The notes: generated by a model from the sequence alone, not told the origin. Positions 2,017-64,000 are shown, numbered from the stretch's first letter. The stretch: 64,000 nucleotides of DNA from Parcubacteria group bacterium GW2011_GWA1_40_21 (GCA_000996205.1 LBYO01000004.1:4051-68050), one strand, 5' to 3'. Made by a program: numbers and translations.

Positions 2017-2149
2017 TTTTTTTAGTTTATAGGTGTTAGGTTTTAGGTATTAGGGGGCAGAGGATTTAATTTCTCTTTTCTGAAAACCTGCAACCTTGCC
2101 GCCTAACACCTGCAACCTAGTTATTATATCAGAAAATAATCTTTACTTT

Positions 2150-2251
2150 GAATTACGAAATGCAAAAATTTATGGTCTGGTTGAGCAAAAACATTTAGAA
2201 AACAAAGAGATTTTGCGACCCGAGGACCTAAATTTTTGCATTTCGTAATTC
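2150..2251. repeat. MITE-like palindromic element, copy A
   Basis: ~102 bp bounded by terminal inverted repeats gaattacgaaatgcaaaaattt ... aaatttttgcatttcgtaattc. Near-identical copies lie at 57885-57990 (inverted) and 59443-59549. Confidence 0.6.
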
Positions 2252-2340
2252 AAGAATCTTTAAGTATTTTTTACTTTGTAAATTTACGAACTTTCCACTC
2301 TTCCTCTGAAGGAGGATCCTCCACGGGCGGAACAACTTTT

Positions 2341-6282: not shown

Positions 6283-6311
6283 CCCACTTGGAAACTTAGT
6301 TTCCAAGTGGG
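6283..6311. terminator. 29-bp perfect palindrome cccacttggaaacttagtttccaagtggg (bidirectional terminator-like)
   Basis: The perfect palindrome overlaps the stop codon of the 6296..8029 gene. An identical 31-bp copy lies at 34830-34860. Confidence 0.5.
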
Positions 6312-8534: not shown

Positions 8535-8697
8535 TGATTATTTATGCAATGTTTCCAATTTTCAATATAATATCACATCCTAATCGACAATAAAAATCAG
8601 AAAAAGTCGCTCTGACTCCCTGACTGCAAACCCCCTTCAGTCCCCCTTGTCATTGGGAAAACCGGAGTAGTTACTTGGCGGTTTCACCGCCAAGCGC

Positions 8698-8722
8698 TCT
8701 GTGGGTATCAGATACCCACAGA
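8698..8722. promoter_or_regulatory. 25-bp perfect palindrome tctgtgggtatcagatacccacaga (family F)
   Basis: Perfect inverted repeat. Related copies lie at 21415-21441 and inside the 60-bp palindrome at 38184-38243. Confidence 0.4.
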
Positions 8723-15551: not shown

Positions 15552-15787
15552 AAGGTTGTAGCTTATTAGTGGAGAAAGGAATATAGCTTTTTAGCTTGTA
15601 GCTTGTTAGGGAAGATTGAAGATTGGGGAAATAGCTTTTTAGCTTGTAGCTGTTTAGGAAAAATTAAGAGTATAATAGTAGAAAGCTGATAATGATAAAT
15701 TAATAATTAAATAGAGAAAGTGGCTGTTTAGGTAAGATTCAGTCCTAACAAGCTATCTGACTACAAGCTAAAAAGCTAAATAAAACT

Positions 15788-16804: not shown

Positions 16805-16909
16805 TTAGCAAAATAGCTTTTTAGCTTGTAGCTTGTTAGTAAGATAGTGATGACAAACTTTCTTCCTAAAAAGCTAAACAGCTACAAGCTACTAACCTAA
16901 ACAAAAAAT

Positions 16910-21384: not shown

Positions 21385-21414
21385 ATTTTTGTCTTATACG
21401 CGCCCTTTTACACA

Positions 21415-21441
21415 TTCTGTGGGTATCTGATACCCACAGAA
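21415..21441. promoter_or_regulatory. 27-bp perfect palindrome ttctgtgggtatctgatacccacagaa (family F)
   Basis: Perfect inverted repeat in the metG / transporter intergenic gap. Confidence 0.4.
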
Positions 21442-34100: not shown

Positions 34101-34773
34101 AGTTGTGTTTTTTCGGATTTTTAACTTTAAACTTCACTATCACCGCTTCTTCCGTCACCGTTTTATAACTGTTATCCATCGCCACTTCCGCTTTGGCCAA
34201 AGGAGTCTCGCATCTCGGGCAATACATCAAAACCTTCCGACCTTCATAGAGCAAATCTTTTTTGTGGATTTCTTTTAACGCCCACCAAACGCTTTCAATG
34301 TAAGAATTGTCCATCGTCATATAGGAATTATCAAATTCCACCCAGCGGCCGATTCTCTCCACATAATTTTTCCAGTCGTGGGCAGTTTCTAAAACAGCGG
34401 AACGGCAAGTCTCGTTGAACTTTCCAACCCCCATCGCTTCAATTTCTTTTTTGCTCTTGAGCCCGAGCCTTTTTTCAATCATATTTTCAATCGGCAAGCC
34501 GTGGCAATCCCAGCCCCACCTTCGGCGAACATGATACCCCCGCATTGTCTTATAGCGAGGAATCACATCCTTAGCAACGGAAGAAAGCAAACTGCCGTAA
34601 TGAGGCAGACCTGTCGCAAAAGGCGGTCCATCATAAAAGACAAACTCGCCTTTCGGTGAATCCTTTGCCAAAGTTTTTTCAAAAATTTTATTTTCTTTCC
34701 AAAAACGGAGAGTTTCTTCCTCCCTTTTAGCCGTTTCGCTTTTGTTGTCTTTTTCCTTGTCGTTATTGGTCAT
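31189..34773 (-). CDS. ileS: isoleucyl-tRNA synthetase with an embedded histidine-phosphatase (PGAM-like) domain
   Basis: Carries 'PPFATGLPHYGSLL' (HIGH), 'WTTTPWTLSGN' (editing CP1), 'KMSKSKGN' and a zinc knuckle 'IWKCEKCGK'. Residues ~516-722 are 'YFVVRHGEADNN…FSSPFVRTKETAEII…ENRVGELNAGTFDG…ILIVTHDSPAWLL', a complete histidine-phosphatase core placed before 'LDLHRPYIDE'. Confidence 0.9.
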   Translation of the reverse strand: MTNNDKEKDNKSETAKREEETLRFWKENKIFEKTLAKDSPKGEFVFYDGPPFATGLPHYGSLLSSVAKDVIPRYKTMRGYHVRRRWGWDCHGLPIENMIEKRLGLKSKKEIEAMGVGKFNETCRSAVLETAHDWKNYVERIGRWVEFDNSYMTMDNSYIESVWWALKEIHKKDLLYEGRKVLMYCPRCETPLAKAEVAMDNSYKTVTEEAVIVKFKVKNPKKHNLPENTYLLAWTTTPWTLSGNVALAINQELIYCKLNLKSNPSADGLNLPPEADPPQAEKTEDRENLILAKERLGILSEPYEIISEFSGEKLVGLEYEPLYEIPAVKNFNKKSHYVVSADFVTTEDGTGIVHIAPMHGEDDYNIGIKYDLPTIPLLDQSGHFNKEAPEFIQGFYLKKGEKYIKEDLEKRGLIFAKQAHTHSYPHCHRCETPLYYSALSSWFINIQKVKNRLKELNEKINWFPDHLKHGRFLNNIESAPDWNISRNRYWASPLPIWKCEKCGKIELVGSVDELKKKTKKSGNKYFVVRHGEADNNVKAFISSDSKNSSHLTEKGREQAAKAGDDLIVEKIDIIFSSPFVRTKETAEIIARKLQIEPSDIILENRVGELNAGTFDGKSISAYTDYFTSFEERFIKNTPQGENYSDIKKRTADFIYDIEKRHNNKNILIVTHDSPAWLLFAGSFGMNAKEALLMRGNGEFFIENAEIRKLDFVPLPHNENYELDLHRPYIDEVDLVCSGEDCLGETKRVPEVIDGWFESGAMPFAEYHYPFENEKELGSRFPSGDFVTEYVAQTRTWFYYMHTISGILFDDASFKNVITTGTILAEDGSKMSKSKGNYTDPMLNMDKYGADALRYYLMTSPIMQAEDIKFADEEIKDAHNKVINILLNTFNFFELYQGEYDGKTKCEDSENVLDGWILAKLNILINEVTEGLENYNTVKSGRPIKDFINEFSTWYVRRSRERVKGDDYKDKQFALATMKYVLTELSKIMAPFTPFLAEYLYQKLNGKGKDKESVHLEEWVKVVESRKSKVESLIEDMEEVRRIVSLGLEARAKANIKVRQALKKLKVKSYKVHKVEKEMLDLIKDELNVKEIIFDEKILGEVELDTEISPELKEEGSLRDLIRGLQDLRKKAGLNTSQKIILYVQAEIHAREFMEKFAEEIKKSAGIEKLEFNAVVEDGQEISTDGFVIKAKIEA
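33933..34036. repeat. three consecutive perfect palindromes inside ileS coding sequence
   Basis: ccgcctgaggcggatccgcctcaggcgg (33933-33960), aatccgtcagctgacggatt (33968-33987) and gcttgcaataaatcagctcctgatttattgcaagc (34002-34036). Together they encode …INQELIYCKLNLKSNPSADGLNLPPEADPPQAEKTEDR…. Confidence 0.7.
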
Positions 34774-34829: not shown

Positions 34830-34860
34830 CCCCACTTGGAAACTTAGTTTCCAAGTGGGG
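34830..34860. terminator. 31-bp perfect palindrome ccccacttggaaacttagtttccaagtgggg + A/T runs
   Basis: Identical to the element at 6283-6311. Followed by a second hairpin (aacgcattggt…accaatgcgtt) at 34869-34917, upstream of ileS. Confidence 0.5.
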
Positions 34861-34940
34861 AAAAGAAAAACGCATTGGTCTCTTCAGGATATTTAATCCT
34901 AAAAAAACCAATGCGTTGATTTGTCCGTAAAAAATACTGC

Positions 34941-35315: not shown

Positions 35316-35489
35316 GCCGTCTTATGTTATGAACTAAATTTTTCTTCTGAAAGGATACCTTGCCCAAACAAAAAGTCAACGATTAAGAAGGCGGGTAGCT
35401 TGTAGCTGTTTAACTTTTTAGGAAGAAAGTCTGGCGCTCCTATTCTTATTCTTACCTAAAAAGCTACAAGCTAATAAGCTTCCCCAAAA

Positions 35490-38183: not shown

Positions 38184-38243
38184 GATTCCGTGGGTATCTG
38201 ATATCCACAGACCGTCTGTGGATATCAGATACCCACGGAATCT
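38184..38243. promoter_or_regulatory. 60-bp perfect palindrome in the divergent tmk / dCMP-deaminase intergenic region
   Basis: gattccgtgggtatctgatatccacagacg | cgtctgtggatatcagatacccacggaatc. Each arm itself contains the family-F core gtgggtatctgata. Confidence 0.6.
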
Positions 38244-46455: not shown

Positions 46456-46564
46456 TTTTGATTAGCTGATTAGCTTGTAGCTTCTTAGCTTTTTAGTATC
46501 AGAATCTTCCTAATAAGCTACAAGCTAAAAAGCTACTTATCTAATTTTTTATGGACTTTACGAC

Positions 46565-48474: not shown

Positions 48475-49734
48475 TTATTTCAAATAGTCATCCGCAAAAT
48501 CACGGAGGCCGCCTTCTTTCACTTTTGAAACCTTGCCGCCGCTCCTCTCTTTAATCTCAAAGAGTCCTTCGTCCAAAGTCTTCTTGCTTATTATGAGCCG
48601 GAGAGGTATCCCTATCAAATCCGAGTCTTTGAATTTTTCCCCCGCCCGCAAGTCCCTGTCGTCAAAAAGAACTTCCAACCCGCGACTATTGAGCGCGGAG
48701 TATATCCGTTCAGAAACTTTTCTGACTTCCCCGCTCTCGCCCCCGATTTCCACGAGATGAATGTCAAACGGCGCGACTCTCTTCGGCCAGACTAAGCCCT
48801 CTTTGTCGGAGAGGACTTCCGCGATCGTTCCGATGAGCCTCGTCGGGCCGAGTCCATAGCTTCCCATTACGACAAATTTTTCTTTTCCTTCTTCGTCAAG
48901 ATACGCGAGATTCAACGCTTCCGAAAATCTAACGCCTAAATTGAAAATATTGCCGACTTCCACGGATTTTTTCTTTTTTAAATCGGAAGATTGGCAATTA
49001 CCGCACGCTTTTTTACTTTCAAGAACCTCGTCGTTAATCGCGATTTTGCATCCCTCGCAGACATATATCGTATCTTCTCCTGCTTCCGTAATCGTCTGGA
49101 ATTCGTCCGAATATTTGCTGAAAGTCCCGCCGGAAGCGGAAGTGATGTAAGTCGTCTCTCCTATGCCAACCTTATCAAATACATTCATATAAGCAAGCTT
49201 GGCTTTTTCGTAAAACAAGCTGTGCTCTTTCTCATCTCTGGAAAAGGAGTAAAGGTCTTTCATCAGAAATTCTCGCCCTCTCATAATTCCGCTTTTCGCC
49301 CGCGTTTCGTTTCTGAATTTCGTCTGTATCTGATACGGATAGAGAGGCAAATCTCTAAACGATCTTATGTGATTTTTCATAAGCGCGGTCAAGGGCTCTT
49401 CGTGGGTAAAGCCGAGTCCGAGCTCCGCGCCGCTTTTGAGCTTCGTCTTAAACCAATTATCCACCACGGCATCGTCCCATCGTCCGGTCTTCTCCCAAAG
49501 TTCTCTGTCTTGAAGCGCGGCCAAAAGAATTTCCTGCCCGCCGATGGCATTCATCTCTTCGCGAATCACGCCGTTCACTTTATTTAAAACGCGGAGACCA
49601 AGCGGCAGAAATGAGTAAACTCCCGCCATTTCTTTGTGGATAAAGCCGGCGCGGATAAGAAGCTCGGCATTTCTAGAAACTTCGTCTTTCGGCGCCTCTT
49701 TCCGCGTTTTGCTTAATAGTTGGGATTGCCTCAT
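48475..49734 (-). CDS. proS: prolyl-tRNA synthetase
   Basis: 'MRQSQLLSKTRKEAPKDEVSRNAELLIRAGFI…YSFLPLG' with class II motifs. The longest ORF extends to 49770. Confidence 0.85.
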   Translation of the reverse strand: MRQSQLLSKTRKEAPKDEVSRNAELLIRAGFIHKEMAGVYSFLPLGLRVLNKVNGVIREEMNAIGGQEILLAALQDRELWEKTGRWDDAVVDNWFKTKLKSGAELGLGFTHEEPLTALMKNHIRSFRDLPLYPYQIQTKFRNETRAKSGIMRGREFLMKDLYSFSRDEKEHSLFYEKAKLAYMNVFDKVGIGETTYITSASGGTFSKYSDEFQTITEAGEDTIYVCEGCKIAINDEVLESKKACGNCQSSDLKKKKSVEVGNIFNLGVRFSEALNLAYLDEEGKEKFVVMGSYGLGPTRLIGTIAEVLSDKEGLVWPKRVAPFDIHLVEIGGESGEVRKVSERIYSALNSRGLEVLFDDRDLRAGEKFKDSDLIGIPLRLIISKKTLDEGLFEIKERSGGKVSKVKEGGLRDFADDYLK

Positions 49735-54437: not shown

Positions 54438-54522
54438 GCCGAGGTGGCGAAATTGGTAGACGTACTTGCCTTAGGAGCAAGCGGGGTAACCCATGGAGGT
54501 TCGAGTCCTCTCCTCGGCACCA
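54438..54522 (+). tRNA. tRNA-Leu (anticodon UAG)
   Basis: Acceptor gccgagg/cctcggc, anticodon loop ctTAGga, a long variable arm, T-arm ggttcgagtcc, and an encoded CCA. Confidence 0.9.
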
Positions 54523-54622
54523 CGAATCTGCGAGTGGGCAGAGGAAGCCCCGAAGAACATCGGGACGTGAGGACTCGAATGTCCTCTCCTCAGCAAAAAT
54601 TTGTAGTACAATATAAAAAAAC

Positions 54623-54706
54623 GCCCAGGTGGTGAAATTGGTAGACACGCAGGCCTCAGAAGCTTGTGGAAGCAATTCCTTGGAGGTTCGAGTCCTCTCC
54701 TGGGCA
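54623..54706 (+). tRNA. tRNA-Leu (anticodon CAG)
   Basis: Acceptor gcccagg/cctgggc, anticodon loop ctCAGaa, a long variable arm, T-arm ggttcgagtcc. CCA is not encoded. Confidence 0.85.
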
Positions 54707-54878
54707 CAAAGTTAGTCCACTAAATTTGTGACCAGGAAATGAGCAAACTGCTTTGCTCGTGTGAGAAATTGATGAATTGAAAATTTATCTCCATAAAACC
54801 TAACACCTACAACCTACAACCTAATCTGTTGGATTTATTCTCATTTTTGATATAGAATTACAAAGTTAAATAAACAAT

Positions 54879-56453
54879 ATGGTATCACCGCAAATCGCTA
54901 GATTGTTGGAAAGTTTGAAACAAACCGCCGACAAAGACGATATAGCCAACAAAGACGAATTTTATGTCAAAGTCAACGAGCTCGCCAAAAAAGCGGGTAT
55001 GTTTTACGAAAAAATCCGCTATCTGATTGATTACAAGGAGGAGCACACGATCCGCCGAAACGCGATTCAAAGAATTTTAAAAAGAAATCTTTTTTTCAAG
55101 ACCGAAGGAAAGGTCGCCCAACTTCTCATTCATGAACTTATAAGAGGCGGGTACCTTGAAAGCGGCAGTTTTTCAGAAAACAGAATTTCTTATGTTCAAG
55201 GAATAATAGACAAATTTTTGTCTCTCCAAAATTCTTTGGCTTCCGTGGCAGGAGGAGATTTGGCGACCAATAAGAAAATAATAGGCCTCGTGGCGAGTGA
55301 AATAGAAATTTATCTATTCGGCAGTAAGATTGAAGAGTCGGTCTTTATCGCCTTTTACGAGACTGTCAGGAACGATATAAAACTTTCTCAAATCCCGATA
55401 AGCGAAGACGACAAAGACGCGCAAATATACATTGCGTGCTTGAGAAGCCTTCTGAAAACCGACGAGCAAACAATCGCTTACCGATTATGGATAAGGCTTT
55501 TGCCTAATTGGATTAACATTAAAGACGGTTCGGAAATTCAGATTGTCGCAAAAAGTTTCTCATCTATCCAATCCAAGATAACCGCGAATCTTGACGACAA
55601 TCTTAGTTGGAGAATTGCTCGGAAATTAAAAAATCAGGCCATATATTTCAACCTCATAAAAGAGATCGTAGAGCGTTACGGGGCCGATTCCGAACAAATT
55701 CTTAATAATCCGGCTTCTCTGGAAAAGCAAGCGAAAAATATTCTGGAGAGCAAATACAAAAAAGAAAACGGCCGAATTCGCAAAAGCGCCTTTAGGGCGA
55801 TAATTTATATTTTATTCACCAAAACTATTTTGGCTTTCATCTTGGAACTGCCGTATGACCTTGCGATATTGGGGAAAATTTATTATCCGGCTCTGATAAT
55901 AAATGTGGCTTTCCACCCCGTATTTCTTTTCCTCGTCACATATACGATAAAACCGTTGGGAGAAAAAAATACCGGCCTTATAATTTCCGGACTCAACACC
56001 GTCATTTATGACAATGCTATGTCGTCCATCCAAATCAGGGGCAAAAAGACTAAAAATTTTCTGTATTTCCTGTTTTTAATTTTATACGGATTTATATTTC
56101 TGCTGACTTTCGGAGCGGTCGTGTTCATCCTCAATAAGCTCAATTTTAATTTTATGAGCATGCTTCTTTTTATTTTTTTCCTGACTTTGGTCGCTTATTT
56201 CGGACTGCGCATAAGATACATTGCGAAGAATTGGACGGCCAGCTCCAACAAAGAAAGAACGCTTCGCTTTTTAGGCAATATCTTAGTTATGCCGATAGTG
56301 GAAGTCGGGAGATGGCTAAGTCAGAAATTTGAAGGTATCAATATCTTGGTCTTTATTATGGATTTCATCATAGAAACCCCATTCAAGGCAATGCTCAGCG
56401 TGTTTGACTCATTCATCTCATTTCTCAAGGAAAAGAGAGAGGAGATGTATTGA
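54879..56453 (+). CDS. hypothetical polytopic membrane protein
   Basis: 524 aa: a ~300-aa soluble N-terminal region followed by ~6 TM helices. Confidence 0.45.
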   Translation: MVSPQIARLLESLKQTADKDDIANKDEFYVKVNELAKKAGMFYEKIRYLIDYKEEHTIRRNAIQRILKRNLFFKTEGKVAQLLIHELIRGGYLESGSFSENRISYVQGIIDKFLSLQNSLASVAGGDLATNKKIIGLVASEIEIYLFGSKIEESVFIAFYETVRNDIKLSQIPISEDDKDAQIYIACLRSLLKTDEQTIAYRLWIRLLPNWINIKDGSEIQIVAKSFSSIQSKITANLDDNLSWRIARKLKNQAIYFNLIKEIVERYGADSEQILNNPASLEKQAKNILESKYKKENGRIRKSAFRAIIYILFTKTILAFILELPYDLAILGKIYYPALIINVAFHPVFLFLVTYTIKPLGEKNTGLIISGLNTVIYDNAMSSIQIRGKKTKNFLYFLFLILYGFIFLLTFGAVVFILNKLNFNFMSMLLFIFFLTLVAYFGLRIRYIAKNWTASSNKERTLRFLGNILVMPIVEVGRWLSQKFEGINILVFIMDFIIETPFKAMLSVFDSFISFLKEKREEMY

Positions 56454-56534
56454 ACGACTCAAATTGCGCGATTCGGTCAAAGATATTAGAATGAAGCAAT
56501 TAAAATTATGCAAATAAATAACACATATAGCAAT

Positions 56535-57854
56535 ATGAAAAAAATTAAATTGAATGCCATTTTGGTCTTGTTTTTAGGTATTTTTGCCGCGGGCATATCA
56601 AATACGGCGCAGACAGCTTCAGCAAAATCTTCCGAGGACAGATTTGATAAAATCCCAGGACAATACATAGTCGTCTTAAAGGATAAAGGGGCTGACACCG
56701 ATTCGGAAACGGACAATACCGCCAAAGCCCATAAACTGGAACGTATCCACACTTATAATCGCGCGATAAAAGGATTCGCGGCAAGAATAAATGAAGCCGA
56801 ATTGGAAAAAATCAAAAACGACCCTCGCGTTGAATTTGTGGCGGAAGACAGAGCGGTTTATATTTCCAATCCCGCGTTTGGAAGCGAATCTTCGAACAAA
56901 GCTTCTTCCGTTTCCAAAAAGCCGGCGCCGCAGACACAGCCTCCGCAGACTGTTCCGACGGGGATTGACCGCGTCAATGCCGAGAACTTGCTTAACAAAG
57001 GTGCCGGTATCGGCGTGGCTGTCATAGACACAGGCATTGAGCTTTCTCATCCCGACCTAAAGGGAAATATCATAGCCAATAAAAATTGCCTTTCCAGCGT
57101 AAAAAACGGCAATGACGACAACGGCCACGGAACTCATACGGCGGGAACAATCGCCGCGCTTGATAACAATATCGGAGTTGTCGGCGCGGCGCCGGAAGCG
57201 AAATTGATAGCGGTAAAAGTTTTAAACCGAAATGGGTCGGGAACTTGGTCGTCAGTAATATGCGGAATTGATTGGGTAACGGCAAACGCGGCCAAATACA
57301 ACATAAAAGTCGCCAATATGAGTTTGGGCGGAGCCGGAGCGAGCGACAATAATTGCGGAAGCACAAACAATGATCCTCTTCATAAGGCCATCTGCAATTC
57401 CAGAGACGCCGGCGTCACTTATGTGGTCGCCGCCGGAAATGAAAACAAATCGGCAAGCCTTTCTGTGCCAGCCTCTTATGACGATGCCGTGATCACCGTT
57501 TCCGCTCTGGCTGATTCTGACGGCGCTCTGGGCGGATTGGGATCCCCTACTCTATACGGAGCCGACGACACATTCGCGACTTTCAGCAATTTTGGAAATA
57601 TAGTGGATTTGGGAGCTCCCGGGGTTGACATCTACTCAACATACATAGGCGGCAAATACGCGACCCTTAGCGGAACAAGTATGGCCGCGCCTCATGTGTC
57701 TGGTGTCGCGACTCTCTATATAAAAAATAATCCGTCTTCAACATGGGACCAAGTAAGAGATGTTTTGAAAGCGTTGGCGGAAAATCTCGGCTTCGGACAC
57801 ACCGACCCGTCCGACCTTCATTCTGAACCTGTTGTAAGAGCAGACAGTCTTTAA
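56535..57854 (+). CDS. secreted subtilisin-like serine protease (S8) with an I9 propeptide
   Basis: 'VAVIDTGI' (Asp), 'HGTHTAGTIAA' (His) and 'GTSMAAPHVSG' (Ser). Signal peptide MKKIKLNAILVLFLGIFAAGIS. The longest ORF starts at 56508. Confidence 0.85.
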   Translation: MKKIKLNAILVLFLGIFAAGISNTAQTASAKSSEDRFDKIPGQYIVVLKDKGADTDSETDNTAKAHKLERIHTYNRAIKGFAARINEAELEKIKNDPRVEFVAEDRAVYISNPAFGSESSNKASSVSKKPAPQTQPPQTVPTGIDRVNAENLLNKGAGIGVAVIDTGIELSHPDLKGNIIANKNCLSSVKNGNDDNGHGTHTAGTIAALDNNIGVVGAAPEAKLIAVKVLNRNGSGTWSSVICGIDWVTANAAKYNIKVANMSLGGAGASDNNCGSTNNDPLHKAICNSRDAGVTYVVAAGNENKSASLSVPASYDDAVITVSALADSDGALGGLGSPTLYGADDTFATFSNFGNIVDLGAPGVDIYSTYIGGKYATLSGTSMAAPHVSGVATLYIKNNPSSTWDQVRDVLKALAENLGFGHTDPSDLHSEPVVRADSL

Positions 57855-57884
57855 TTTTAAACGCCTTGAAATTGTAAAATGGTA

Positions 57885-57990
57885 CCCCAAATTGCGAAAT
57901 GCAAAAATTCAGGTCCTCGGGCAGCAAAAGCTGTTTGCTTTTAAATGTTTTTGCTCAGCCAGACCGTAAATTTTTGCATTTCGTAATTCG
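57885..57990. repeat. MITE-like palindromic element, copy B (inverted relative to A and C)
   Basis: Reverse complement of the copy-A/C sequence. Flanked by near-identical 8-bp aaatggta on both sides, a candidate target-site duplication. Confidence 0.6.
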
Positions 57991-58052
57991 GAAATGGTAT
58001 ACAAAATCTGCTATCGCTGAAAATGTGCACCCTTTCAAAAAATAAATAAATT

Positions 58053-58079
58053 AGAGGTGGGATAAAAATCCCACCTCTA
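58053..58079. terminator. Rho-independent terminator hairpin agaggtgggat-aaaa-atcccacctct
   Basis: 11-bp stem between the convergent subtilisin gene and the 58102..58392 gene, with A/T runs on both sides. Confidence 0.55.
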
Positions 58080-58101
58080 TTATGTAAATTCATCATCATT
58101 A

Positions 58102-58392
58102 TTAAAACTTGATAGCGCCGCCTCCCATCGTTTGGCACACAGGACAACACCTTAGATGATCCCTAATTCTGCACAAATGACGAGGTTTTATATACTTCTC
58201 GCCATAAGGTAAAATTCCAAAAAAGGGCGTTATTTCTTTACAAGTCGGAATCTCCCTTTTCTGCCACGGTCTTTTAAACGGAATCGCAGCCCCCGTCTCA
58301 ATCAATTTTCTTGCCTTTTCGCCGTATTTCATCTTCCCCCCTATCAAAATTCTGAATTTTATGGAACTAAAAACTTTTAAAGAGACTAGCAC
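58102..58392 (-). CDS. hypothetical small Cys-rich (zinc-ribbon-like) protein
   Basis: 96 aa. The C-terminal 'CRIRDHLRCCPVCQTMGG' is zinc-ribbon-like. Confidence 0.35.
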   Translation of the reverse strand: MLVSLKVFSSIKFRILIGGKMKYGEKARKLIETGAAIPFKRPWQKREIPTCKEITPFFGILPYGEKYIKPRHLCRIRDHLRCCPVCQTMGGGAIKF

Positions 58393-58397
58393 GCATT

Positions 58398-59417
58398 CTA
58401 TTTTTTGGCAATACCAGCGAGTTTCATATCCAAAAGATCGGATATTAACTTGGCTAATTTGGGATGGGGCTGTCCGTTTATTTCAATCCAGCGTTCCCCG
58501 TCAATCATAGACGGCACATATATATAAATTCCCAAAGTTTTAAATCCTCCCTCCTTCATAATTTTACCATTCTCATCCATGTACGCCGCACAGCCACCGC
58601 TGAATTCATTAATTTTCTCATCCTCTATGGAAGTGTCCAGTCTGGAAAATTTATTTTCAGGAATAATATAAATCAAATCTTTCTCTTCTTCGCTTCCATT
58701 TATTTTACCGTTGTCAATAGTCTTGACTTTCAACTTAACCATCCCTTCCAACTCTTTTCTGTTCATAGCATCGCCTTTGACTTGGATAAGCATATTGATT
58801 TTATCTTCCTTGTCTATCGCAATCATATCTATTGATTTCTCCACATCATCTTTAGGCGCGCTGTAAGTGAAATCCATTCTGTTTTTTTTGCCGCTTTTAT
58901 CTCTATTGTATTTATTATCCAAAATATTCCTCAAAGCTATCGGCGCCAGCACTCCGTGCTTTAAAGTTTCTCCTCTAACAATAGTTTTGTTTTTTTCCAC
59001 CTTAAAGAGATCGTCATACAAATCCCAATAATCTTCCAATAAAATAAAATTATTTTCGTTATTCTTTATGAAAAAAGCCATTTCTTGTTGAAATTTCGCA
59101 TTCTCAATTCTAACATCTTTATCCCTTTCTCCATTTTTTCTGGTCGCTTTATCTCTTAAAATCAATTCCTCCACGCCAAATAAAAGGCTGGTTAGATGAA
59201 TTCTGTTCGGGTCTGTCAATTTTCCTAAAAATTTTTCTTTTCCAGACAAGATTTTTGCGCGATAATCTTCATCATCGCCTTCTCTCTCCTCGCGCAAAGA
59301 CATAATTTCCTCCTCAATCTTGCGAAGGAGGTTTGGATAAGAAATTGAATCTAAGTTTTCAAAATCAGCCTCTTTCGGTTCGTCTTCCAAGAGAATTCCT
59401 CCTGGATGTGTCTTCAA
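58398..59417 (-). CDS. hypothetical protein (possible PD-(D/E)xK-like nuclease motif, weak)
   Basis: 339 aa, acidic N-terminus. 'SIDMIAIDKEDKINMLIQVKG' is loosely PD-(D/E)xK-like. I see no other motif. Confidence 0.4.
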   Translation of the reverse strand: MKTHPGGILLEDEPKEADFENLDSISYPNLLRKIEEEIMSLREEREGDDEDYRAKILSGKEKFLGKLTDPNRIHLTSLLFGVEELILRDKATRKNGERDKDVRIENAKFQQEMAFFIKNNENNFILLEDYWDLYDDLFKVEKNKTIVRGETLKHGVLAPIALRNILDNKYNRDKSGKKNRMDFTYSAPKDDVEKSIDMIAIDKEDKINMLIQVKGDAMNRKELEGMVKLKVKTIDNGKINGSEEEKDLIYIIPENKFSRLDTSIEDEKINEFSGGCAAYMDENGKIMKEGGFKTLGIYIYVPSMIDGERWIEINGQPHPKLAKLISDLLDMKLAGIAKK

Positions 59418-59442
59418 ATGATTCCATAATTTGTATTATATC

Positions 59443-59549
59443 CCAAAATTACAAAATGCAAAAATTCAGGTCTGGTTGAGCAAAAACATTTAAAGATAAA
59501 CAGCTTTTGCGACCCGAGGACCTGAATTTTTGCATTTCGTAATTTGGGG
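59443..59549. repeat. MITE-like palindromic element, copy C
   Basis: ccaaaattacaaaatgcaaaaattcagg…cctgaatttttgcatttcgtaatttgggg. Near-identical to copy A. Confidence 0.6.
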
Positions 59550-59577
59550 CATAATAAACACTCCTCAATTAAAATTA

Positions 59578-60267
59578 TCACATTTCGTAAACAACATCCT
59601 TTCTCTCCACGATTACTCTCCAGCCTTTCTTTTTTGCGCGCAAATATAGCTTTGAGTTGGGGTTGAAGCATATAGGCTCCGCGACCATTTCAAGAAAAGA
59701 AATATCGCCTTCCGTGTCCCCCACCCCCACCGAATTTTCCAAAGTCAAATTTTCTTTTTCAACGGCGCGCTTTACTATATTGGCTTTGTCTTTGATTAAT
59801 TCTTCGCTTATGACATTTCCCGTCAATTTTCCCGCCGAATCGGTTTCGTAGAATCTCCCGTACACTTTGTCAAAACCCAACTTTTCACAGAATCCGTCCA
59901 GTATTCCTTTAGGCGACTGCGAAATGGCTAAAATAAAATATTTCTTTTTCTTTAACTTTGAAATCAAATCCCGAGTGTAGCGGTATGTCCTGTTTTTGTA
60001 TCTTTCAATCACGATTTTCGCGGCGCGGTCAAAATCTTCATAAGCAATTCCTTTGATATTTTTCATAAAAACTTGCACCACCGCGTTTATATACGACTCA
60101 TAATCTCCCCTCCGGTCAAGCCACTCATTTTCCTCCATCTCGTATTCTTTGCGCGCGGAAAAATCAAAAAGCTTATTTTCAATCATAACTTCCACGAGCT
60201 CAATCAAAAGGCTTGAGCGGAAAATAGTCCCGTCAATATCAAATATAGCGACTTTCCTTTTTTTCAT
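59578..60267 (-). CDS. HAD-superfamily hydrolase (HAD-IB/SerB-like)
   Basis: 'VAIFDIDGTI' (DxDGT motif I) and the downstream 'GDTEGD' motif IV. Confidence 0.7.
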   Translation of the reverse strand: MKKRKVAIFDIDGTIFRSSLLIELVEVMIENKLFDFSARKEYEMEENEWLDRRGDYESYINAVVQVFMKNIKGIAYEDFDRAAKIVIERYKNRTYRYTRDLISKLKKKKYFILAISQSPKGILDGFCEKLGFDKVYGRFYETDSAGKLTGNVISEELIKDKANIVKRAVEKENLTLENSVGVGDTEGDISFLEMVAEPICFNPNSKLYLRAKKKGWRVIVERKDVVYEM

Positions 60268-60297
60268 ACAAGAAATAATAACATATAATTTTCATTG

Positions 60298-60369
60298 TGG
60301 ACGATACAGGGATTGAACCTGTGACCTTTCGCGTGTGAAGCGAACGCTCTACCGCTGAGCTAACCGTCC
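60298..60369 (-). tRNA. tRNA-Val (anticodon CAC)
   Basis: Reverse-complement cloverleaf: ggacggt…gctcagcggtagagc…ttCACac…ggttcaatcc…atcgtcca. Confidence 0.85.
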
Positions 60370-60442
60370 TTGATTTTTCACTTAACAAATTAATTGAATT
60401 ATGCACTCCGCGGCTTAAAACACAGCCCCGTCAATAAATCTA

Positions 60443-61102
60443 TCAGCTTTTCGGCAAGCCGAACGGGGATATTTCCAATTTTATCAATTCATCCCCTGTC
60501 GCCTTTCTAAAAATGAGTCCGGTCGCGCTAAGCATTATGCTGTTGTCCGACAGAGATTCCGGCGCGCCGTATTTTATGTCGCCAACAATGGGATGTCCGA
60601 TTGAAGAAAGCTGAGCGCGGATTTGGTGGGAACGGCCCGTGAGAGGTTTGATTTTTAGAAGAGAAAATTTGCCGTTTGATTCAATGACTTCATACGAGAG
60701 CTCTGACTCTTTTGTATCTTTGCTTGCCGATTTATGGACAAAAACTTTATTCCTATCTTCGTTTTTTTTGAGATGAGAAATAATCATTCCCTTCTTCCGT
60801 TCCATTTTTCCGAAAACAACGGCGTGATATGTTTTCCCCACTTCGTGATTCCTGAATTGCTCGGAGAGACGCGATGCTCCCTTGCTTGTCTTGGCGAAAA
60901 CCATTATTCCGGAAACAGGTCTGTCCAAGCGGTGAACAAGCCCCAAGAAAACATTGCCGATCTTTTTGTATTTTTCCTTGATATGCTTCTTAACCCAATC
61001 AAAGACAGACTCCTCGCCCGTCTCATCGCTCTGTGCGAGAATGCATGCCGGTTTGTAAACAGCGATAATATGATTGTCTTCGTAAAGAATTTTTAGGGTC
61101 AT
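60443..61102 (-). CDS. RluA-family pseudouridine synthase
   Basis: 'GLVHRLDRPVSGIMVFAKT' matches the HRLD…TSG catalytic motif. Confidence 0.8.
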   Translation of the reverse strand: MTLKILYEDNHIIAVYKPACILAQSDETGEESVFDWVKKHIKEKYKKIGNVFLGLVHRLDRPVSGIMVFAKTSKGASRLSEQFRNHEVGKTYHAVVFGKMERKKGMIISHLKKNEDRNKVFVHKSASKDTKESELSYEVIESNGKFSLLKIKPLTGRSHQIRAQLSSIGHPIVGDIKYGAPESLSDNSIMLSATGLIFRKATGDELIKLEISPFGLPKS

Positions 61103-61181
61103 TGTTTTAATTGTTTACTTGGTCTTTACTTTATGGACTTTTCCTCCGAAGGAGGATCCGCCTAAGGCGGAATAGACTTCT

Positions 61182-62069
61182 TTATAAACTTATTCTTCCC
61201 CATCTGGCAAAAATTCCGGCAGGCAACAGTCTGCCGCTCCCAGACTCCTCAATGGCAAGCTCCCCTTTCTCAATCGCTCCGCCGAATTTTTTCACGAGTG
61301 GCGACAGATTATTTTCATAAGCTATCGCCGAATACCCCGCCGAGTAGCCGTTTATCAAAAAGAAAATCGGCGTATCGGACAAAACATCTTCGCAGAGTTT
61401 CATAAGACCGAGAAAATCATCTTCTATCTTCCATAATTCTTTTTTCGGCCCATGGCCGAAAGCCGGCGGGTCCATCACGATTCCATTGTAGCGAACTCCT
61501 CTTCTTATTTCCCTTTTTACGAACTCGCGCGCGTCATCAAGTATCCATCGGACAGGCTTGTCCGCGAGTCCCGAAAGGACAGCATTCTCCTTTGCCCAAG
61601 TGATGGCGGATTTTGACCCGTCAATATGAGCAACTTCGGCACCGGCGCTAAGCGCCGCGAGCGTGGCTCCTCCAGTGTAGCCGAAAAGATTGAGAACTGA
61701 TACAGGCCGATTCAAATTTGCCGATTTTATTTTATCAATTATCCACCTCCAATTCGGCTCCTGTTCCGGAAATAATCCGGTATGCTTGAAAGCGGTCAGC
61801 TTTATGAAAAAGCTCAGCCCGCCTAATTCTATTTTCCATTTTTCGGGAACATTCGGCTTTTTCTTCCATCCTGCCTTAGCTCCGCTATGGGCGAAAACAG
61901 CATCGGCTTTCTGCCATTCAGCAATCGGCAAGCGCTTGTTCCACAACGCCTGCGGATCAGGTCTAGACAAGATAAATTTGCCGTATCTTTCCAGCTTTTC
62001 TCCTTCTCCGCTATCCAATAATTCATAATCCCCGCCAGCCAAAGTCTTAAGTATTTTCAATTCTTCCAT
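61182..62069 (-). CDS. class I SAM-dependent RNA methyltransferase (RlmI/YccW-like)
   Basis: 'VLNLFGYTGGATLAALSAGA' (motif I) and 'IVMDPPAFG' (motif IV). Confidence 0.7.
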   Translation of the reverse strand: MEELKILKTLAGGDYELLDSGEGEKLERYGKFILSRPDPQALWNKRLPIAEWQKADAVFAHSGAKAGWKKKPNVPEKWKIELGGLSFFIKLTAFKHTGLFPEQEPNWRWIIDKIKSANLNRPVSVLNLFGYTGGATLAALSAGAEVAHIDGSKSAITWAKENAVLSGLADKPVRWILDDAREFVKREIRRGVRYNGIVMDPPAFGHGPKKELWKIEDDFLGLMKLCEDVLSDTPIFFLINGYSAGYSAIAYENNLSPLVKKFGGAIEKGELAIEESGSGRLLPAGIFARWGRISL

Positions 62070-62310
62070 ATTTTGCCATTATATATTGAGAATTGCGATA
62101 TGTCATTCCCGCGCCGGCGGGAATGACAATTCAAAGTGTGTAATATTTATTCACAATCTCAATCAGCCTGTTCGTTATCTCTATATGCTCTTTTTCGTCA
62201 GTAATTATTTTTTATTTATTTCCTCTTTATCCAGTTCATGGTCTAGAAGCGGCATCAATTTTTCGCATAACCCCATCGCGCGGTATTCCGCCTCAAGGCC
62301 TTTCTTCAAA

Positions 62311-62610
62311 TCAAAAATTATGTCTTCCTTGGTATTTGTTGTAAATTTTCTGAATAATCTTTTTGTGCTCTATTGAATCTTCATAGAGTACTTTCATTCC
62401 TCTCCTTATCTCTTCTCTTTCCCCAGCTTTGACACAATCTTCCACGCCGAAATTTATGAGAGAAATATACAGAGAAATAAGAGTGTCTTCAACTTTTTCT
62501 TCTTCCATAAGAGTTTCAATCGCCGCCATAACTTTTTCATTTTTCATAGACAAATTATATATCCGCGTTCCTAAAAATGATAGCGCGGTTAAAAGATACT
62601 TATTATTCAA
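62311..62610 (-). CDS. hypothetical protein, possibly frameshifted at a T5 run (continues to ~62212 in the -1 frame)
   Basis: 99-aa ORF. Immediately after its stop, an open frame continues: FDLKKGLEAEYRAMGLCEKLMPLLDHELDKEEINKK. A single T indel in 'cataatttttgattt' would fuse the two. Confidence 0.35.
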   Translation of the reverse strand: MNNKYLLTALSFLGTRIYNLSMKNEKVMAAIETLMEEEKVEDTLISLYISLINFGVEDCVKAGEREEIRRGMKVLYEDSIEHKKIIQKIYNKYQGRHNF

Positions 62611-62679
62611 TTCTCGTGCCCTTCATAGGAGCAGAGGGCACTGAATTTTTATAGTCGTTTCATTCCTTAAAAATTAGTG

Positions 62680-62751
62680 GGTGACCAGAGAGAATCGAAC
62701 TCTCATTATTGCTTCCACAAAGCAAAGTCCTAGCCGTTGAACGATGGTCAC
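62680..62751 (-). tRNA. tRNA-His (anticodon GUG) with encoded G-1
   Basis: g-gtgacca…ttGTGga…gagagttcgattctctc-tggtcac-c. The extra 5' G pairs with discriminator C. Confidence 0.85.
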
Positions 62752-62753
62752 CA

Positions 62754-63266
62754 TTATTGTTTGTGTTTAAACAAAAACTTCTGTTTCTCTACATTATCAT
62801 AGTGAACCAATGAATGGCAATTGTGACAAAGCCAAATTAAATTTTTGACATTATTATTTTTGTGATTCTCATCAATATGATGAGTGGCCAGCACTCTGAC
62901 ATCTCTTTCTCCGCAATAATTGCAAATCTGCTTTATCTTATATCGTTTTAATATACTCTGATAAGAATTTTTACCATCTTTAAAATTCGCATGTTTTGGA
63001 CCGACAAATTCAGTATTTCTCCATTTGGTCTGACAAGATTTATTGCAAAAAAATTTACCGCTTTTTGAATGCCTTAATTGGGTCGCTGTTTTTAGCAATT
63101 CCTTATTACATATAAAACAAAATGCCTTATGTCTAACGCGAGTTCCTATATTTTTACAATTCCTTGAACAATATATACCCCAACCTTTTCTTACATTTGA
63201 TGGTCTTGGATAAAATCGAGTATTACAAATTTTGCAGAATGCAACTATCATATTATTTCTTTTCAA
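62754..63266 (-). CDS. HNH endonuclease with an N-terminal Cys-rich zinc-finger region
   Basis: C-terminal 'THHIDENHKNNNVKNLIWLCHNCHSLVH' (HNH). The N-terminus has CxxC…CxxC pairs. Confidence 0.75.
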   Translation of the reverse strand: MKRNNMIVAFCKICNTRFYPRPSNVRKGWGIYCSRNCKNIGTRVRHKAFCFICNKELLKTATQLRHSKSGKFFCNKSCQTKWRNTEFVGPKHANFKDGKNSYQSILKRYKIKQICNYCGERDVRVLATHHIDENHKNNNVKNLIWLCHNCHSLVHYDNVEKQKFLFKHKQ

Positions 63267-63744
63267 ATAATCTATTTTCTTCTTTTTTATAATGATGAAC
63301 TAAAAAATGACAGTTCCGACAAAGCCATATTAGATTTTGCGTATTATTATTTTTCCGATTTTTATCCAAATGATGGACACAAAGCATCTTAAGGTTGTCT
63401 TTGCCGCACAATTTGCAGATCTGTCTGGAACTTGTTCTTTTTAGCAGATTTTTATATGAAGACGATCCCCCAGTCCAATTCGGATTATTTGCCGCTCTCT
63501 GTTGTTTTCCTATCCACGCATTACCGCAAACCTGACCACAAAAGTATTTTCCGCTTTTTGAATTTTTTAAATCCTTTAATGATTTGTAAACAGTTTTATC
63601 GCAAGCAAAACATTGGACGGTCTTTCCTTTTCTTCTTCCCTGTTCTGAACAATATATTGAACAATAGTGCTTTGCGCTTAATTTTAATTGAGATTTTTTC
63701 TTTTTAAATTCCTGACCGCAAAGATCACAGATAATATTTTCCAT
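63253..63744 (-). CDS. HNH endonuclease (tandem paralog)
   Basis: 'VHHLDKNRKNNNTQNLIWLCRNCHFLVH'. Same architecture as 62754..63266, with a 14-nt overlap. Confidence 0.75.
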   Translation of the reverse strand: MENIICDLCGQEFKKKKSQLKLSAKHYCSIYCSEQGRRKGKTVQCFACDKTVYKSLKDLKNSKSGKYFCGQVCGNAWIGKQQRAANNPNWTGGSSSYKNLLKRTSSRQICKLCGKDNLKMLCVHHLDKNRKNNNTQNLIWLCRNCHFLVHHYKKEENRLFEKK

Positions 63745-63795
63745 GTCTCCATTGTATAAAAATCATAATTGAATGTAAATACCCAATTCTGTGGA

Positions 63796-64000
63796 TTATT
63801 TGTATCTGGGCGATTCCTCCTTTATCCTCGCCTTAAGATTTGATAGTCTGGCCAGCGCGTATAAAAGACTTGAGAGACGGTTAAGGTATGAAAGTGAATT
63901 GACTCCAACTTTTAACTTGCCTTCCTCGCTCACCTCCACTACCCTTCTCTCTGCCCTTCGGGCGATTGTTCTAGCAACATCAAACAGGGCGGATAATTCC
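63796..64000 (-). CDS. PduO/MMAB-type ATP:cob(I)alamin adenosyltransferase-like protein (C-terminal fragment; gene continues beyond the window)
   Basis: Manual translation gives …ELSALFDVARTIARRAERRVVEVSEEGKLKVGVNSLSYLNRLSSLLYALARLSNLKARIKEESPRYK*. 'RRAERR' and 'YLNRLSDLLF' are PduO-type signatures. Confidence 0.45.
   Translation of the reverse strand, partial: ELSALFDVARTIARRAERRVVEVSEEGKLKVGVNSLSYLNRLSSLLYALARLSNLKARIKEESPRYK

What the first reader, a model, noticed from the sequence alone, without database searches (positions are those of the whole stretch)
57885..59549. Two inverted copies of a ~105-bp MITE-like element bracket a 1.45-kb two-gene cassette of unknown function
Three near-identical elements lie at 2150-2251, 57885-57990 and 59443-59549. 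They share ~22-29-bp terminal inverted repeats (gaattacgaaatgcaaaaatt…).

Copy B is inverted relative to copy C. Together they flank a bidirectional terminator plus two minus-strand genes: a 96-aa Cys-rich protein and a 339-aa acidic protein with a weak PD-(D/E)xK-like motif. Copy B is bordered on both sides by aaatggta, a possible 8-bp target-site duplication.

The arrangement resembles a composite transposon or MITE-mobilised cargo. The cargo could be a small defence or addiction module.
Basis: seen in the sequence. Interest (0 to 1): 0.6.

Follow-up and report, generated by a model that had tools for sequence, protein, structure and literature searches.

The report
Ordinary MITE copies flanking resident genes
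The three repeats are real copies of a small non-coding jumping element (a MITE) that is abundant in Candidatus Campbellbacteria-type genomes, but the two copies around the gene pair landed there separately and the genes between them are long-standing residents, not mobile cargo.

Summary
Three ~108-110-bp hairpin elements lie at 2146-2255, 57885-57992 and 59442-59549, and B is inverted relative to C.

They belong to a true MITE family. I recovered 89 copies from Ca. Campbellbacteria/Patescibacteria MAGs, 58 of them in 160 kb of one MAG. Of 74 full-length copies, 33 have perfect 7-bp AT-rich target-site duplications, against 0.8 expected. One copy is nested inside another, and 69 of 74 are intergenic.

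The composite-transposon/cargo reading fails on four counts:
- B carries its own perfect duplication.
- The outer flanks of B and C do not match.
- A contig about 90-93% identical in nucleotides has an empty site exactly where C sits.
- The block 524-aa protein / S8 protease / small protein / 339-aa protein / HAD hydrolase is syntenic, without MITEs, in two more distant relatives. A third keeps tRNA-Val, HAD and the gene pair.

The gene pair is a narrow lineage-restricted family. It has no Pfam, NCBIfam or PADLOC hit, and only non-significant structural hints of a PD-(D/E)xK-like fold.

No autonomous transposase was found.

Verdict: an undescribed but ordinary MITE family. Interest is low to moderate.

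The parts
2146..2255 (+). MITE copy A (110 bp). Termini are CTTT...AAGA. It is flanked by a perfect 7-bp target-site duplication, ATCTTTA, at 2139-2145 and 2256-2262. It lies between two co-directional minus-strand genes.
57885..57992 (-). MITE copy B (~108 bp, CCCC...GGGG-terminus subfamily). It is flanked by a perfect 7-8-bp duplication, (A)AATGGTA, at 57877-57884 and 57992-57999. It lies between the convergent S8 protease gene and the small-protein gene.
59442..59549 (+). MITE copy C (108 bp, same subfamily as B). Its duplication has decayed: TATTATAT at 59434-59441 versus CATAATAA at 59550-59557, 5 of 8 matching. The empty site TTATAATA is seen in L109.
58398..59417 (-). 339-aa protein of unknown function. 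The AF2 model shows an N-terminal helical bundle plus a C-terminal alpha/beta domain, with invariant D197, Q212 and K214. It is a resident gene. The ancestral ATG at 59427 is put out of frame by a 23-nt deletion at about 59404.
58102..58332 (-). It lies immediately downstream of the 339-aa homologue in every relative examined.
58052..58079 (-). Intrinsic terminator of the small-protein gene: 12-bp stem with 6 G-C pairs, followed by a T-run on the minus strand.
59435..59462 (-). Promoter-like site matching 10 of 12 consensus positions. The -35 box TTTGCA lies inside the inner end of MITE C and the -10 box TATAAT lies in the duplicated target, directly upstream of the 339-aa gene. This is an inferred hybrid promoter.
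   Evidence: ancestral arrangement GTGACA-18-TATAAT read from L109

Best explanation
A, B and C are three independent insertions of a ~110-bp non-autonomous DNA transposon (a MITE). The family is abundant in Candidatus Campbellbacteria-like Patescibacteria.

**The element**
- It consists of ~25-bp terminal inverted repeats, (T)CTT-GAATTACGAAAYRCAAAAATTTA, around a short, conserved, slightly asymmetric core, so the whole element folds into one long hairpin.
- It encodes nothing.
- It is presumably cut and pasted by a DDE-type transposase supplied in trans. That transposase makes 7-bp staggered cuts in AT-rich intergenic DNA. This step is inferred from the duplications; the enzyme was not found.

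**The arrangement in the window**
- B and C landed separately in the two intergenic spacers on either side of a resident, vertically inherited gene pair (339-aa and 76-aa proteins).
- C hit the -10 box of that pair's promoter and probably rebuilt it as a hybrid promoter. This is an inference.
- The bracket arrangement is a coincidence of a clustering, intergenic-seeking element, not a mobile cassette.
For: **Family size**
- nhmmer with a 4-copy seed finds 89 copies in the loci held: 58 in 160 kb of MAG MFAC01, 14 in JBBTTR01, and others in PFAA01, JBBUED01, JAGXAA01 and CAYIIG01.
- Many contigs and scaffold gaps end inside copies.

**Transposition**
- Of 74 full-length copies, 33 have 7/7 and 64 have at least 6/7 matching flanks. 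Mismatched flank pairs give 0.8 and 8.0.
- In L033 one copy sits inside another, with a perfect TATAAGA duplication.
- 69 of 74 copies are intergenic.

**Independent insertion of B and C**
- B has a perfect duplication of its own.
- L109 (95% aa identity, about 90-93% nt identity) has HAD, then 33 bp, then the ATG, with a single TTATAATA where the window has MITE C between two decayed copies of that word.
- Strain L130 (98.7% nt identity) has both B and C. L130 and L119 also carry an extra MITE that the window lacks.

**Resident genes**
- tblastn shows the 524-aa protein (80-82% identity), S8 protease (76-77%), small protein (51-56%), 339-aa protein (62-95%) and HAD (88-96%) in the same order in L110 and L111, with no MITE.
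- L001 keeps tRNA-Val, HAD, the 347-aa gene and the 77-aa gene with a 16-bp spacer.

**Chromosomal context**
- The window is core chromosome: FtsK, RecA, MreB/C, PBP2 and several aminoacyl-tRNA synthetases.
- No transposase domain was found among its 32 ORFs of at least 200 aa.
Against: - No autonomous element with these terminal repeats was found. The held loci gave none. A metagenome scan for terminal repeats with a non-MITE interior gave 41 loci, all MITE variants or chance matches. Two viral scans gave none. 136 neighbouring ORFs showed no multi-copy transposase family, but only the 25 commonest of 176 families are listed, so a single-copy transposase would be hidden. The mobilising enzyme and its family are therefore inferred only.
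- The two arms covary at two positions: pair 16/116 is UA in 41 copies, CG in 25 and non-standard in 3; pair 17/115 is GC in 40 and AU in 12. Plain transposase binding does not require this. It could reflect subfamily founders, or selection or repair acting on the hairpin.
- C's duplication matches at only 5 of 8 positions.
- Only 64 kb of this genome is available, so its own copy number is unknown (3 copies seen).
Confidence: 0.9

Rival explanations
1. Composite transposon or MITE-mobilised cargo: B and C act together as the ends of a 1.66-kb unit that carries the two genes, possibly a defence or addiction module.
For: - Two copies of the same subfamily (87% identical) lie in inverted orientation 1.45 kb apart around exactly two genes of unknown function.
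- Any two of these palindromic elements present correctly oriented outer terminal repeats.
Against: - B has its own perfect 7-8-bp duplication.
- The outer flanks differ (AAATGGTA versus CATAATAA).
- L109 shows an empty site for C alone.
- The genes sit in the same neighbourhood without MITEs in L110, L111 and L001.
- There are no PADLOC hits.
- The family is very narrow, with 15 representatives among 1.84 billion proteins. Every long context examined (L001, L109, L110, L111, L130) is the same locus.
Confidence: 0.03
2. A non-mobile structural or regulatory repeat (REP/BIME-like, a terminator, or an RNA-stability hairpin) spread by recombination or maintained by selection, rather than a transposon.
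For: - The hairpin is very stable.
- Nearly all copies are intergenic.
- The arms covary.
- There is a weak orientation bias relative to co-directional genes, 28 opposite to 14 same.
- No transposase was found.
Against: - 7-bp target-site duplications occur at 64 of 74 copies.
- There is a nested insertion with a duplication.
- There is a clean empty site.
- No T-run follows the hairpins, and scores only an 8-bp stem inside B as terminator-like, not the element's full hairpin.
- Outward promoter-like sites are not enriched: 14 of 148 ends against 9.6 +/- 3.0.
Confidence: 0.04
3. A hairpin-dependent single-strand transposon relic (an IS200/IS605-type palindrome-associated element) or a small structured RNA gene.
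For: - The whole element is one hairpin.
- The interior is conserved and asymmetric, which defines a strand: nhmmer scores about 100 bits on one strand and about 40 on the other.
Against: - By established knowledge, IS200/IS605 elements make no target duplication and have no terminal inverted repeats. Both are present here.
- Rfam gives nothing at gathering score. At the E-value threshold it gives only far-sub-threshold matches to generic eukaryotic miRNA hairpins, 19-32 bits against cut-offs of 60-211.
- Copies occur in both orientations relative to neighbouring genes.
Confidence: 0.03

Closest known systems
Correia elements (CREE/NEMIS) of Neisseria
   Same: - Short (about 100-200 bp) non-coding elements with ~26-bp terminal inverted repeats.
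- More than 100 copies per genome, mostly intergenic.
- They fold into long hairpins in transcripts and can supply promoter elements to neighbouring genes (PMC10969869).
   Different: - There is no sequence relationship.
- Correia elements duplicate TA (from my own knowledge), whereas this family duplicates 7 bp.
- Promoter, IHF-binding and RNase III effects have been shown for Correia and are untested here.
- The host here is an ultra-small Patescibacteria genome.
RUP, BOX and SPRITE of Streptococcus pneumoniae
   Same: - RUP is ~107 bp, has terminal inverted repeats, is multi-copy and is thought to be mobilised in trans by an IS (size and mobilisation from my own knowledge).
- These elements cluster and insert into one another (PMC10969869), as seen here in L033 and in the dense MFAC01 contigs.
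   Different: - RUP is linked to IS630-Spn1 with a TA target (from my own knowledge).
- Here the duplication is 7 bp and no partner IS is known.
MITEAba12 and other IS-derived bacterial MITEs
   Same: About 110 bp, terminal inverted repeats, a multi-bp target duplication, and presence/absence polymorphism between strains (PMC6382973 abstract; PMC10969869).
   Different: - Those families have candidate parent IS elements. This one has none identified.
- The entire element here is a near-perfect palindrome with covarying arms.
REP/BIME elements with RAYT transposases
   Same: Intergenic, palindromic and high in copy number.
   Different: REPs are 20-40 nt, lack target duplications and associate with a RAYT gene (from my own knowledge). 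Here the element is 110 nt with 7-bp duplications.

Membership tests
MITE (miniature inverted-repeat transposable element) | Short (about 50-800 bp) and non-coding | tested here: met
   Copies are 108-110 bp. The only ORFs running across them are spurious read-throughs.
MITE (miniature inverted-repeat transposable element) | Terminal inverted repeats of at least 10-15 bp | tested here: met
   About 25 nt are perfect in A, and the arms reach 43 nt at 77-81% complementarity (I11 and I18). The repeats are conserved across 71 distinct copies.
MITE (miniature inverted-repeat transposable element) | Target-site duplication of 2-10 bp flanking each copy | tested here: met
   33 of 74 copies match at 7/7 and 64 of 74 at 6/7 or better. 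The control gives 0.8 and 8.0. In the window: A ATCTTTA 7/7, B TACCATT 7/7, C 5/8.
MITE (miniature inverted-repeat transposable element) | Many dispersed copies in a genome | tested here: met
   58 copies in 160 kb held of MAG MFAC01 and 14 in 50 kb of JBBTTR01. Further variants occur in 33 metagenome loci.
MITE (miniature inverted-repeat transposable element) | Evidence of mobility (empty and filled sites, nested insertions) | tested here: met
   L109 has an empty site for C. L033 has a nested copy. L130 and L119 carry an extra copy that the window lacks.
MITE (miniature inverted-repeat transposable element) | A cognate autonomous IS with the same terminal repeats, supplying the transposase | tested here: inconclusive
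   None was found in the held loci, in a metagenome scan aimed at terminal repeats with a non-MITE interior, in viral contigs, or among 136 neighbouring ORFs. Whole genomes could not be scanned.
Composite transposon | One target-site duplication flanking the whole unit (outer flanks identical) | tested here: not met
   The outer flank of B is AAATGGTA and the outer flank of C is CATAATAA.
Composite transposon | End elements lack individual duplications | tested here: not met
   B has a perfect duplication on both of its own sides.
Composite transposon | Cargo found in different contexts, or absent at this site in relatives | tested here: not met
   The locus and gene order are the same in L001, L109, L110, L111 and L130.
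PD-(D/E)xK nuclease (339-aa protein) | Alpha-beta-beta-beta-alpha-beta core carrying D...(D/E)xK catalytic residues | tested here: inconclusive
   - D197, Q212 and K214 are invariant, with Q in place of D/E.
- The AF2 model (pLDDT 81.5) has a C-terminal alpha/beta domain.
- The best Foldseek hits are not significant (E at least 0.1). They do include phage exonucleases, RecB-family and Cas4 proteins, and cap-snatching endonucleases.
- There is no Pfam hit, and profile against PDB sequences gives nothing meaningful.
Known anti-phage defence systems | A match to a defence-protein model, or location in a defence island | tested here: not met
   PADLOC gives 0 hits for both proteins. The neighbours are tRNA-Val, HAD, RluA-type pseudouridine synthase, a methyltransferase and S8 protease.

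The most novel reading that the evidence does not exclude
The family has proliferated, and is still polymorphic between strains, in ultra-small Patescibacteria genomes that appear to encode no matching transposase. Its two arms covary so that the hairpin is preserved.

The evidence does not exclude two readings:
- The element is mobilised by an enzyme supplied from outside the genome, from a host or partner cell or from a phage.
- The hairpin itself is under selection as a domesticated transcription or RNA-processing signal. The hybrid promoter inferred at copy C would be one example.
Probability: 0.08. Interest if true: 0.55.

Novelty: new member of a known kind. Interest (0 to 1): 0.25.

Why it matters
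**For annotation and assembly**
- The element explains why Campbellbacteria MAGs fragment: contigs and scaffold gaps end inside copies.
- It gives a ready-made strain marker for these uncultured bacteria.

**For biology**
- I found no description of MITEs in CPR/Patescibacteria in the searchable literature. Dozens of copies in a heavily fragmented MAG of a lineage with very small genomes show that streamlined episymbiont genomes still tolerate selfish DNA.

**For the original claim**
- The result removes a false lead. The bracketed genes are not a mobile defence cassette.
- They remain a conserved, fast-evolving, lineage-restricted pair of unknown function. In two relatives they sit beside an MGMT/ATL-like DNA-binding gene, which could be worth a separate look.

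Tried and rejected
**RNA families**
- Rfam at gathering score returned only 4 tRNAs.
- Rfam at the E-value threshold returned only far-sub-threshold generic miRNA-hairpin matches.

**The two proteins**
- Pfam, NCBIfam and PADLOC gave nothing.
- A profile search of 1.84 billion representatives found 15 proteins, and none of the 10 I scanned carries an informative domain.
- The profile against PDB sequences gave nothing meaningful.
- Foldseek against PDB and BFVD gave no hit with E below 0.1.

**Hunt for an autonomous partner**
- A search for solo terminal repeats in the held loci gave 3 weak matches, none bounding a transposase.
- A metagenome scan required a non-MITE base after the terminal repeat. 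It returned 41 loci: 33 MITE variants and 8 solo or chance matches. One candidate, L126, is cut off by the contig end.
- Two viral scans returned no copies.
- Pfam on 136 neighbouring ORFs showed no multi-copy transposase family.
- All partial copies proved to be contig ends or N-gaps.

**Tests of a regulatory role**
- Outward hybrid promoters as a general property: 14 of 148 ends against 9.6 +/- 3.0 in the control, not significant.
- Orientation relative to co-directional genes: 28 to 14, weak.

**Rejected readings**
- Composite transposon.
- REP/BIME.
- IS200/IS605-type element.

Full report
**1. The observation**

The sequence contains three related elements: A at 2150-2251, B at 57885-57990 and C at 59443-59549. 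In an alignment B is the reverse complement of A and C. The repeat finder reports arms 57885-57974 and 59460-59549 as a 90-nt inverted pair, 89% complementary.

The 12-mer AATGCAAAAATT occurs exactly six times, once in each arm of each copy. Each element folds as a single near-perfect hairpin of -44 to -56 kcal/mol, with z-scores of -7 to -10.8 against dinucleotide shuffles.

Pairwise identity is 84.5-87.2%, so 'near-identical' is too strong. B and C share CCCC...GGGG termini and form a subfamily. A has the CTTT...AAGA termini of the majority type.

**2. What the element is**

A scan of one genome per species with the conserved core TGAGCAAAAACATT-N(10-25)-TTTTGC returned many contigs of a few MAGs:
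- Candidatus Campbellbacteria RIFCSPLOWO2_02_35_12 (MFAC01)
- Candidatus Campbellbacteria CG10_35_52 (PFAA01)
- Patescibacteria H52-bin007_1, H52-bin132_1 and REEB66

An nhmmer profile built from four copies then found 89 copies in the held DNA. Of these, 58 lie in 160 kb of MFAC01 and 14 in 50 kb of H52-bin007_1. Partial copies are all at contig ends or next to runs of N, so the repeat breaks assemblies.

Aligning 74 full-length copies with their flanks shows that the real termini lie 4 nt outside the GAATTAC core: TCTT, CTTT or CTGT on the left and ATAG, AAGA or ACAG on the right.

The 7 nt beyond the termini are direct repeats. They match at 7/7 in 33 copies and at 6/7 or better in 64. Pairing the flanks of different copies gives 0.8 and 8.0. 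The duplicated words are AT-rich, for example TATAATA, TAAATTA and TAAGTAT.

In L033 one copy lies inside the loop of another, flanked by TATAAGA on both sides. Of the 74 copies, 69 are intergenic.

These are the defining properties of a MITE. The window's copies fit: A has ATCTTTA on both sides, B has (A)AATGGTA on both sides, and C has a decayed pair matching at 5 of 8.

**3. Are the bracketed genes cargo? No**

- **Duplications.** B carries its own perfect duplication, so it inserted alone. The outer flanks of the B...C unit differ (AAATGGTA versus CATAATAA).

- **Empty site for C.**
  - The 339-aa protein has only 21 close homologues. The closest, P0001 (95% identity), lies on contig L109.
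  - In L109 the HAD stop codon is followed by 33 bp and then the ATG. A single TTATAATA sits where the window has TTATTATG, then MITE C, then ATATAATA. This is a clean empty site.

- **Synteny.**
  - In L110 and L111 (67% and 62% identity) the order is 524-aa protein, S8 protease, then convergently the small protein, the 348-aa protein, an 87-aa DNA_binding_1 protein and HAD. This is the window's neighbourhood without any MITE.
  - tblastn confirms orthology: 524-aa protein 80-82%, S8 76-77%, HAD 88-96%, 339-aa protein 62-95%, small protein 51-56%.
  - In L001, part of a 717-kb contig, tRNA-Val, HAD, the 347-aa gene and a 77-aa gene follow one another with a 16-bp spacer and no element.

- **Strain comparison.** A strain 98.7% identical over window 54521-62560 (L130) has both B and C. 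L130 and L119 also carry another copy, with a perfect ATTTATT duplication, where the window has different sequence.

The elements are therefore polymorphic between strains while the genes stay put.

**4. Local consequences**

This section is inference. In L109 the 349-aa gene is preceded by GTGACA, 18 nt, then TATAAT. MITE C inserted into that -10 word.

In the window the best promoter-like site of the region, matching 10 of 12 positions, combines TTTGCA inside the inner end of C with the duplicated TATAAT. A hybrid promoter probably replaces the old one.

This is not a general property of the family. Only 14 of 148 ends show such an arrangement, against 9.6 +/- 3.0 in shuffled flanks.

The hairpin at 58052-58079 is a terminator for the small gene on the minus strand only.

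**5. How the element moves**

The 7-bp duplications and terminal inverted repeats imply cut-and-paste, or copy-in, by a transposase acting in trans. I did not find that enzyme:
- No solo terminal repeats bound an ORF in the held loci.
- A metagenome scan designed to exclude the MITE interior returned 33 MITE variants and 8 chance or truncated matches.
- No copies occur in IMG/VR viral contigs.
- None of the window's 32 ORFs of at least 200 aa has a transposase domain.
- No transposase family appears among the 25 commonest families (the only ones listed, of 176) matched by 136 ORFs next to copies.

The arms covary at two positions. Pair 16/116 is UA in 41 copies, CG in 25 and non-standard in 3. 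Pair 17/115 is GC in 40 and AU in 12. This may reflect subfamily founders or constraint on the hairpin. I could not separate the two.

**6. The two proteins**

The 339-aa protein has no Pfam, NCBIfam or PADLOC match. A profile of 21 sequences finds only 15 representatives among 1.84 billion proteins, and none of the 10 I scanned has an informative domain.

An AlphaFold model has mean pLDDT 81.5 and pTM 0.82. It shows six long helices followed by an alpha/beta domain. D197, Q212, K214, G215 and D216 are invariant.

Foldseek against PDB and BFVD gives nothing with E below 0.1. PD-(D/E)xK nucleases do recur among the top non-significant hits. The nuclease idea is a lead, not a result.

The small gene is best read as 76 aa, 58102-58332. 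It has an ATG behind a GGGGGG site and a conserved C...CPxC motif. It follows the large gene in every relative examined.

Both proteins evolve faster than their neighbours. In the window the large gene has lost 23 nt near its 5' end relative to L130. This puts the ancestral ATG out of frame and leaves an in-frame TTG.

**7. Comparison and verdict**

The element works like Correia, RUP and other bacterial MITEs (PMC10969869) and passes every MITE criterion except identification of the parent IS.

It fails the tests for a composite transposon. It also lacks the features expected of REP/BIME or IS200/IS605-type elements.

I found no report of MITEs in Patescibacteria in the searchable literature. 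A survey of 183,232 prokaryotic genomes does not mention these phyla.

It is a new member of a known kind. It is useful for assembly, annotation and strain typing of these bacteria, but not surprising in mechanism.

Noticed in passing
window 2020-2054/2093-2121, 11437-11497/11691-11722, 41306-41331/41360-41390, 41960-41993/42015-42053, 52138-52177/52270-52287, 53859-53924/54797-54823: Many intergenic regions carry short arrays with a 7-bp period, (TAGGTKG)n. One is 9.4 perfect AGGTGGT units. Each is paired with the inverse array (CMACCTA)n a short distance downstream. One pair brackets two tRNA-Leu genes.

A second flavour, (TAGCTTK)n/(MAAGCTA)n, lies at 989-1028, 15578-15669, 16814-16898, 35396-35480 and 46462-46535. 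Further 7-mers (ACTTTAT, ACTTTCG) occur elsewhere.
   Followed up: no
window 8696-8722, 21414-21440, 38185-38239, 49317-49343; 6283-6313 and 34831-34861: There are two further dispersed palindrome families: TCTGTGGGTATCWGATACCCACAGA (5 copies) and CCCACTTGGAAACTTAGTTTCCAAGTGGGG (2 identical copies). They look terminator-like.
   Followed up: no
window 31189-34773 (-): A 1194-aa isoleucyl-type class I tRNA synthetase has a histidine-phosphatase (His_Phos_1) domain inserted at residues 526-691, inside the catalytic domain.
   Followed up: no
window ~59404 and 59417-59427: Relative to strain L130 (98.7% identical), the window lacks 23 nt in the first codons of the 339-aa gene. The conserved ATG at 59427 is therefore out of frame and only a TTG at 59417 is in frame. 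This could be an N-terminal truncation, incipient decay or an assembly error.
   Followed up: partly
L001 11441-11456: A 16-nt solo MITE terminus, CTTTGAATTACGAAAC, lies just downstream of the small gene's terminator. This is exactly where synteny with the window ends: an arginine decarboxylase gene replaces the S8 protease. It may mark a MITE-associated rearrangement or deletion.
   Followed up: partly
window 62561-63832 versus L130 and L119: To the right of 62560 the near-identical strains carry a different tRNA gene plus a MITE with a perfect ATTTATT duplication. Homology resumes at window 63833. The window instead has tRNA-His and a 110-nt direct repeat at 62773-62882 and 63266-63375.
   Followed up: partly
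L110 5516-5779, L111 4709-4969: In two relatives an 86-87-aa DNA_binding_1 (MGMT/ATL-like) gene sits between HAD and the 348-aa gene, at the position MITE C occupies in the window. This hints that the gene pair could act on DNA.
   Followed up: no
L085 4213-4241 and 4826-4854: A gene whose product looks like a DedA-family membrane protein (by eye, not tested) is bracketed by a right-end-like and a left-end-like solo MITE terminus facing away from each other.
   Followed up: no
L001 9294-9984: The HAD hydrolase gene, intact at 229 aa in the window, L109, L110 and L111, is split into 132-aa and 77-aa ORFs in the 717-kb contig. This is a frameshift or pseudogene.
   Followed up: no
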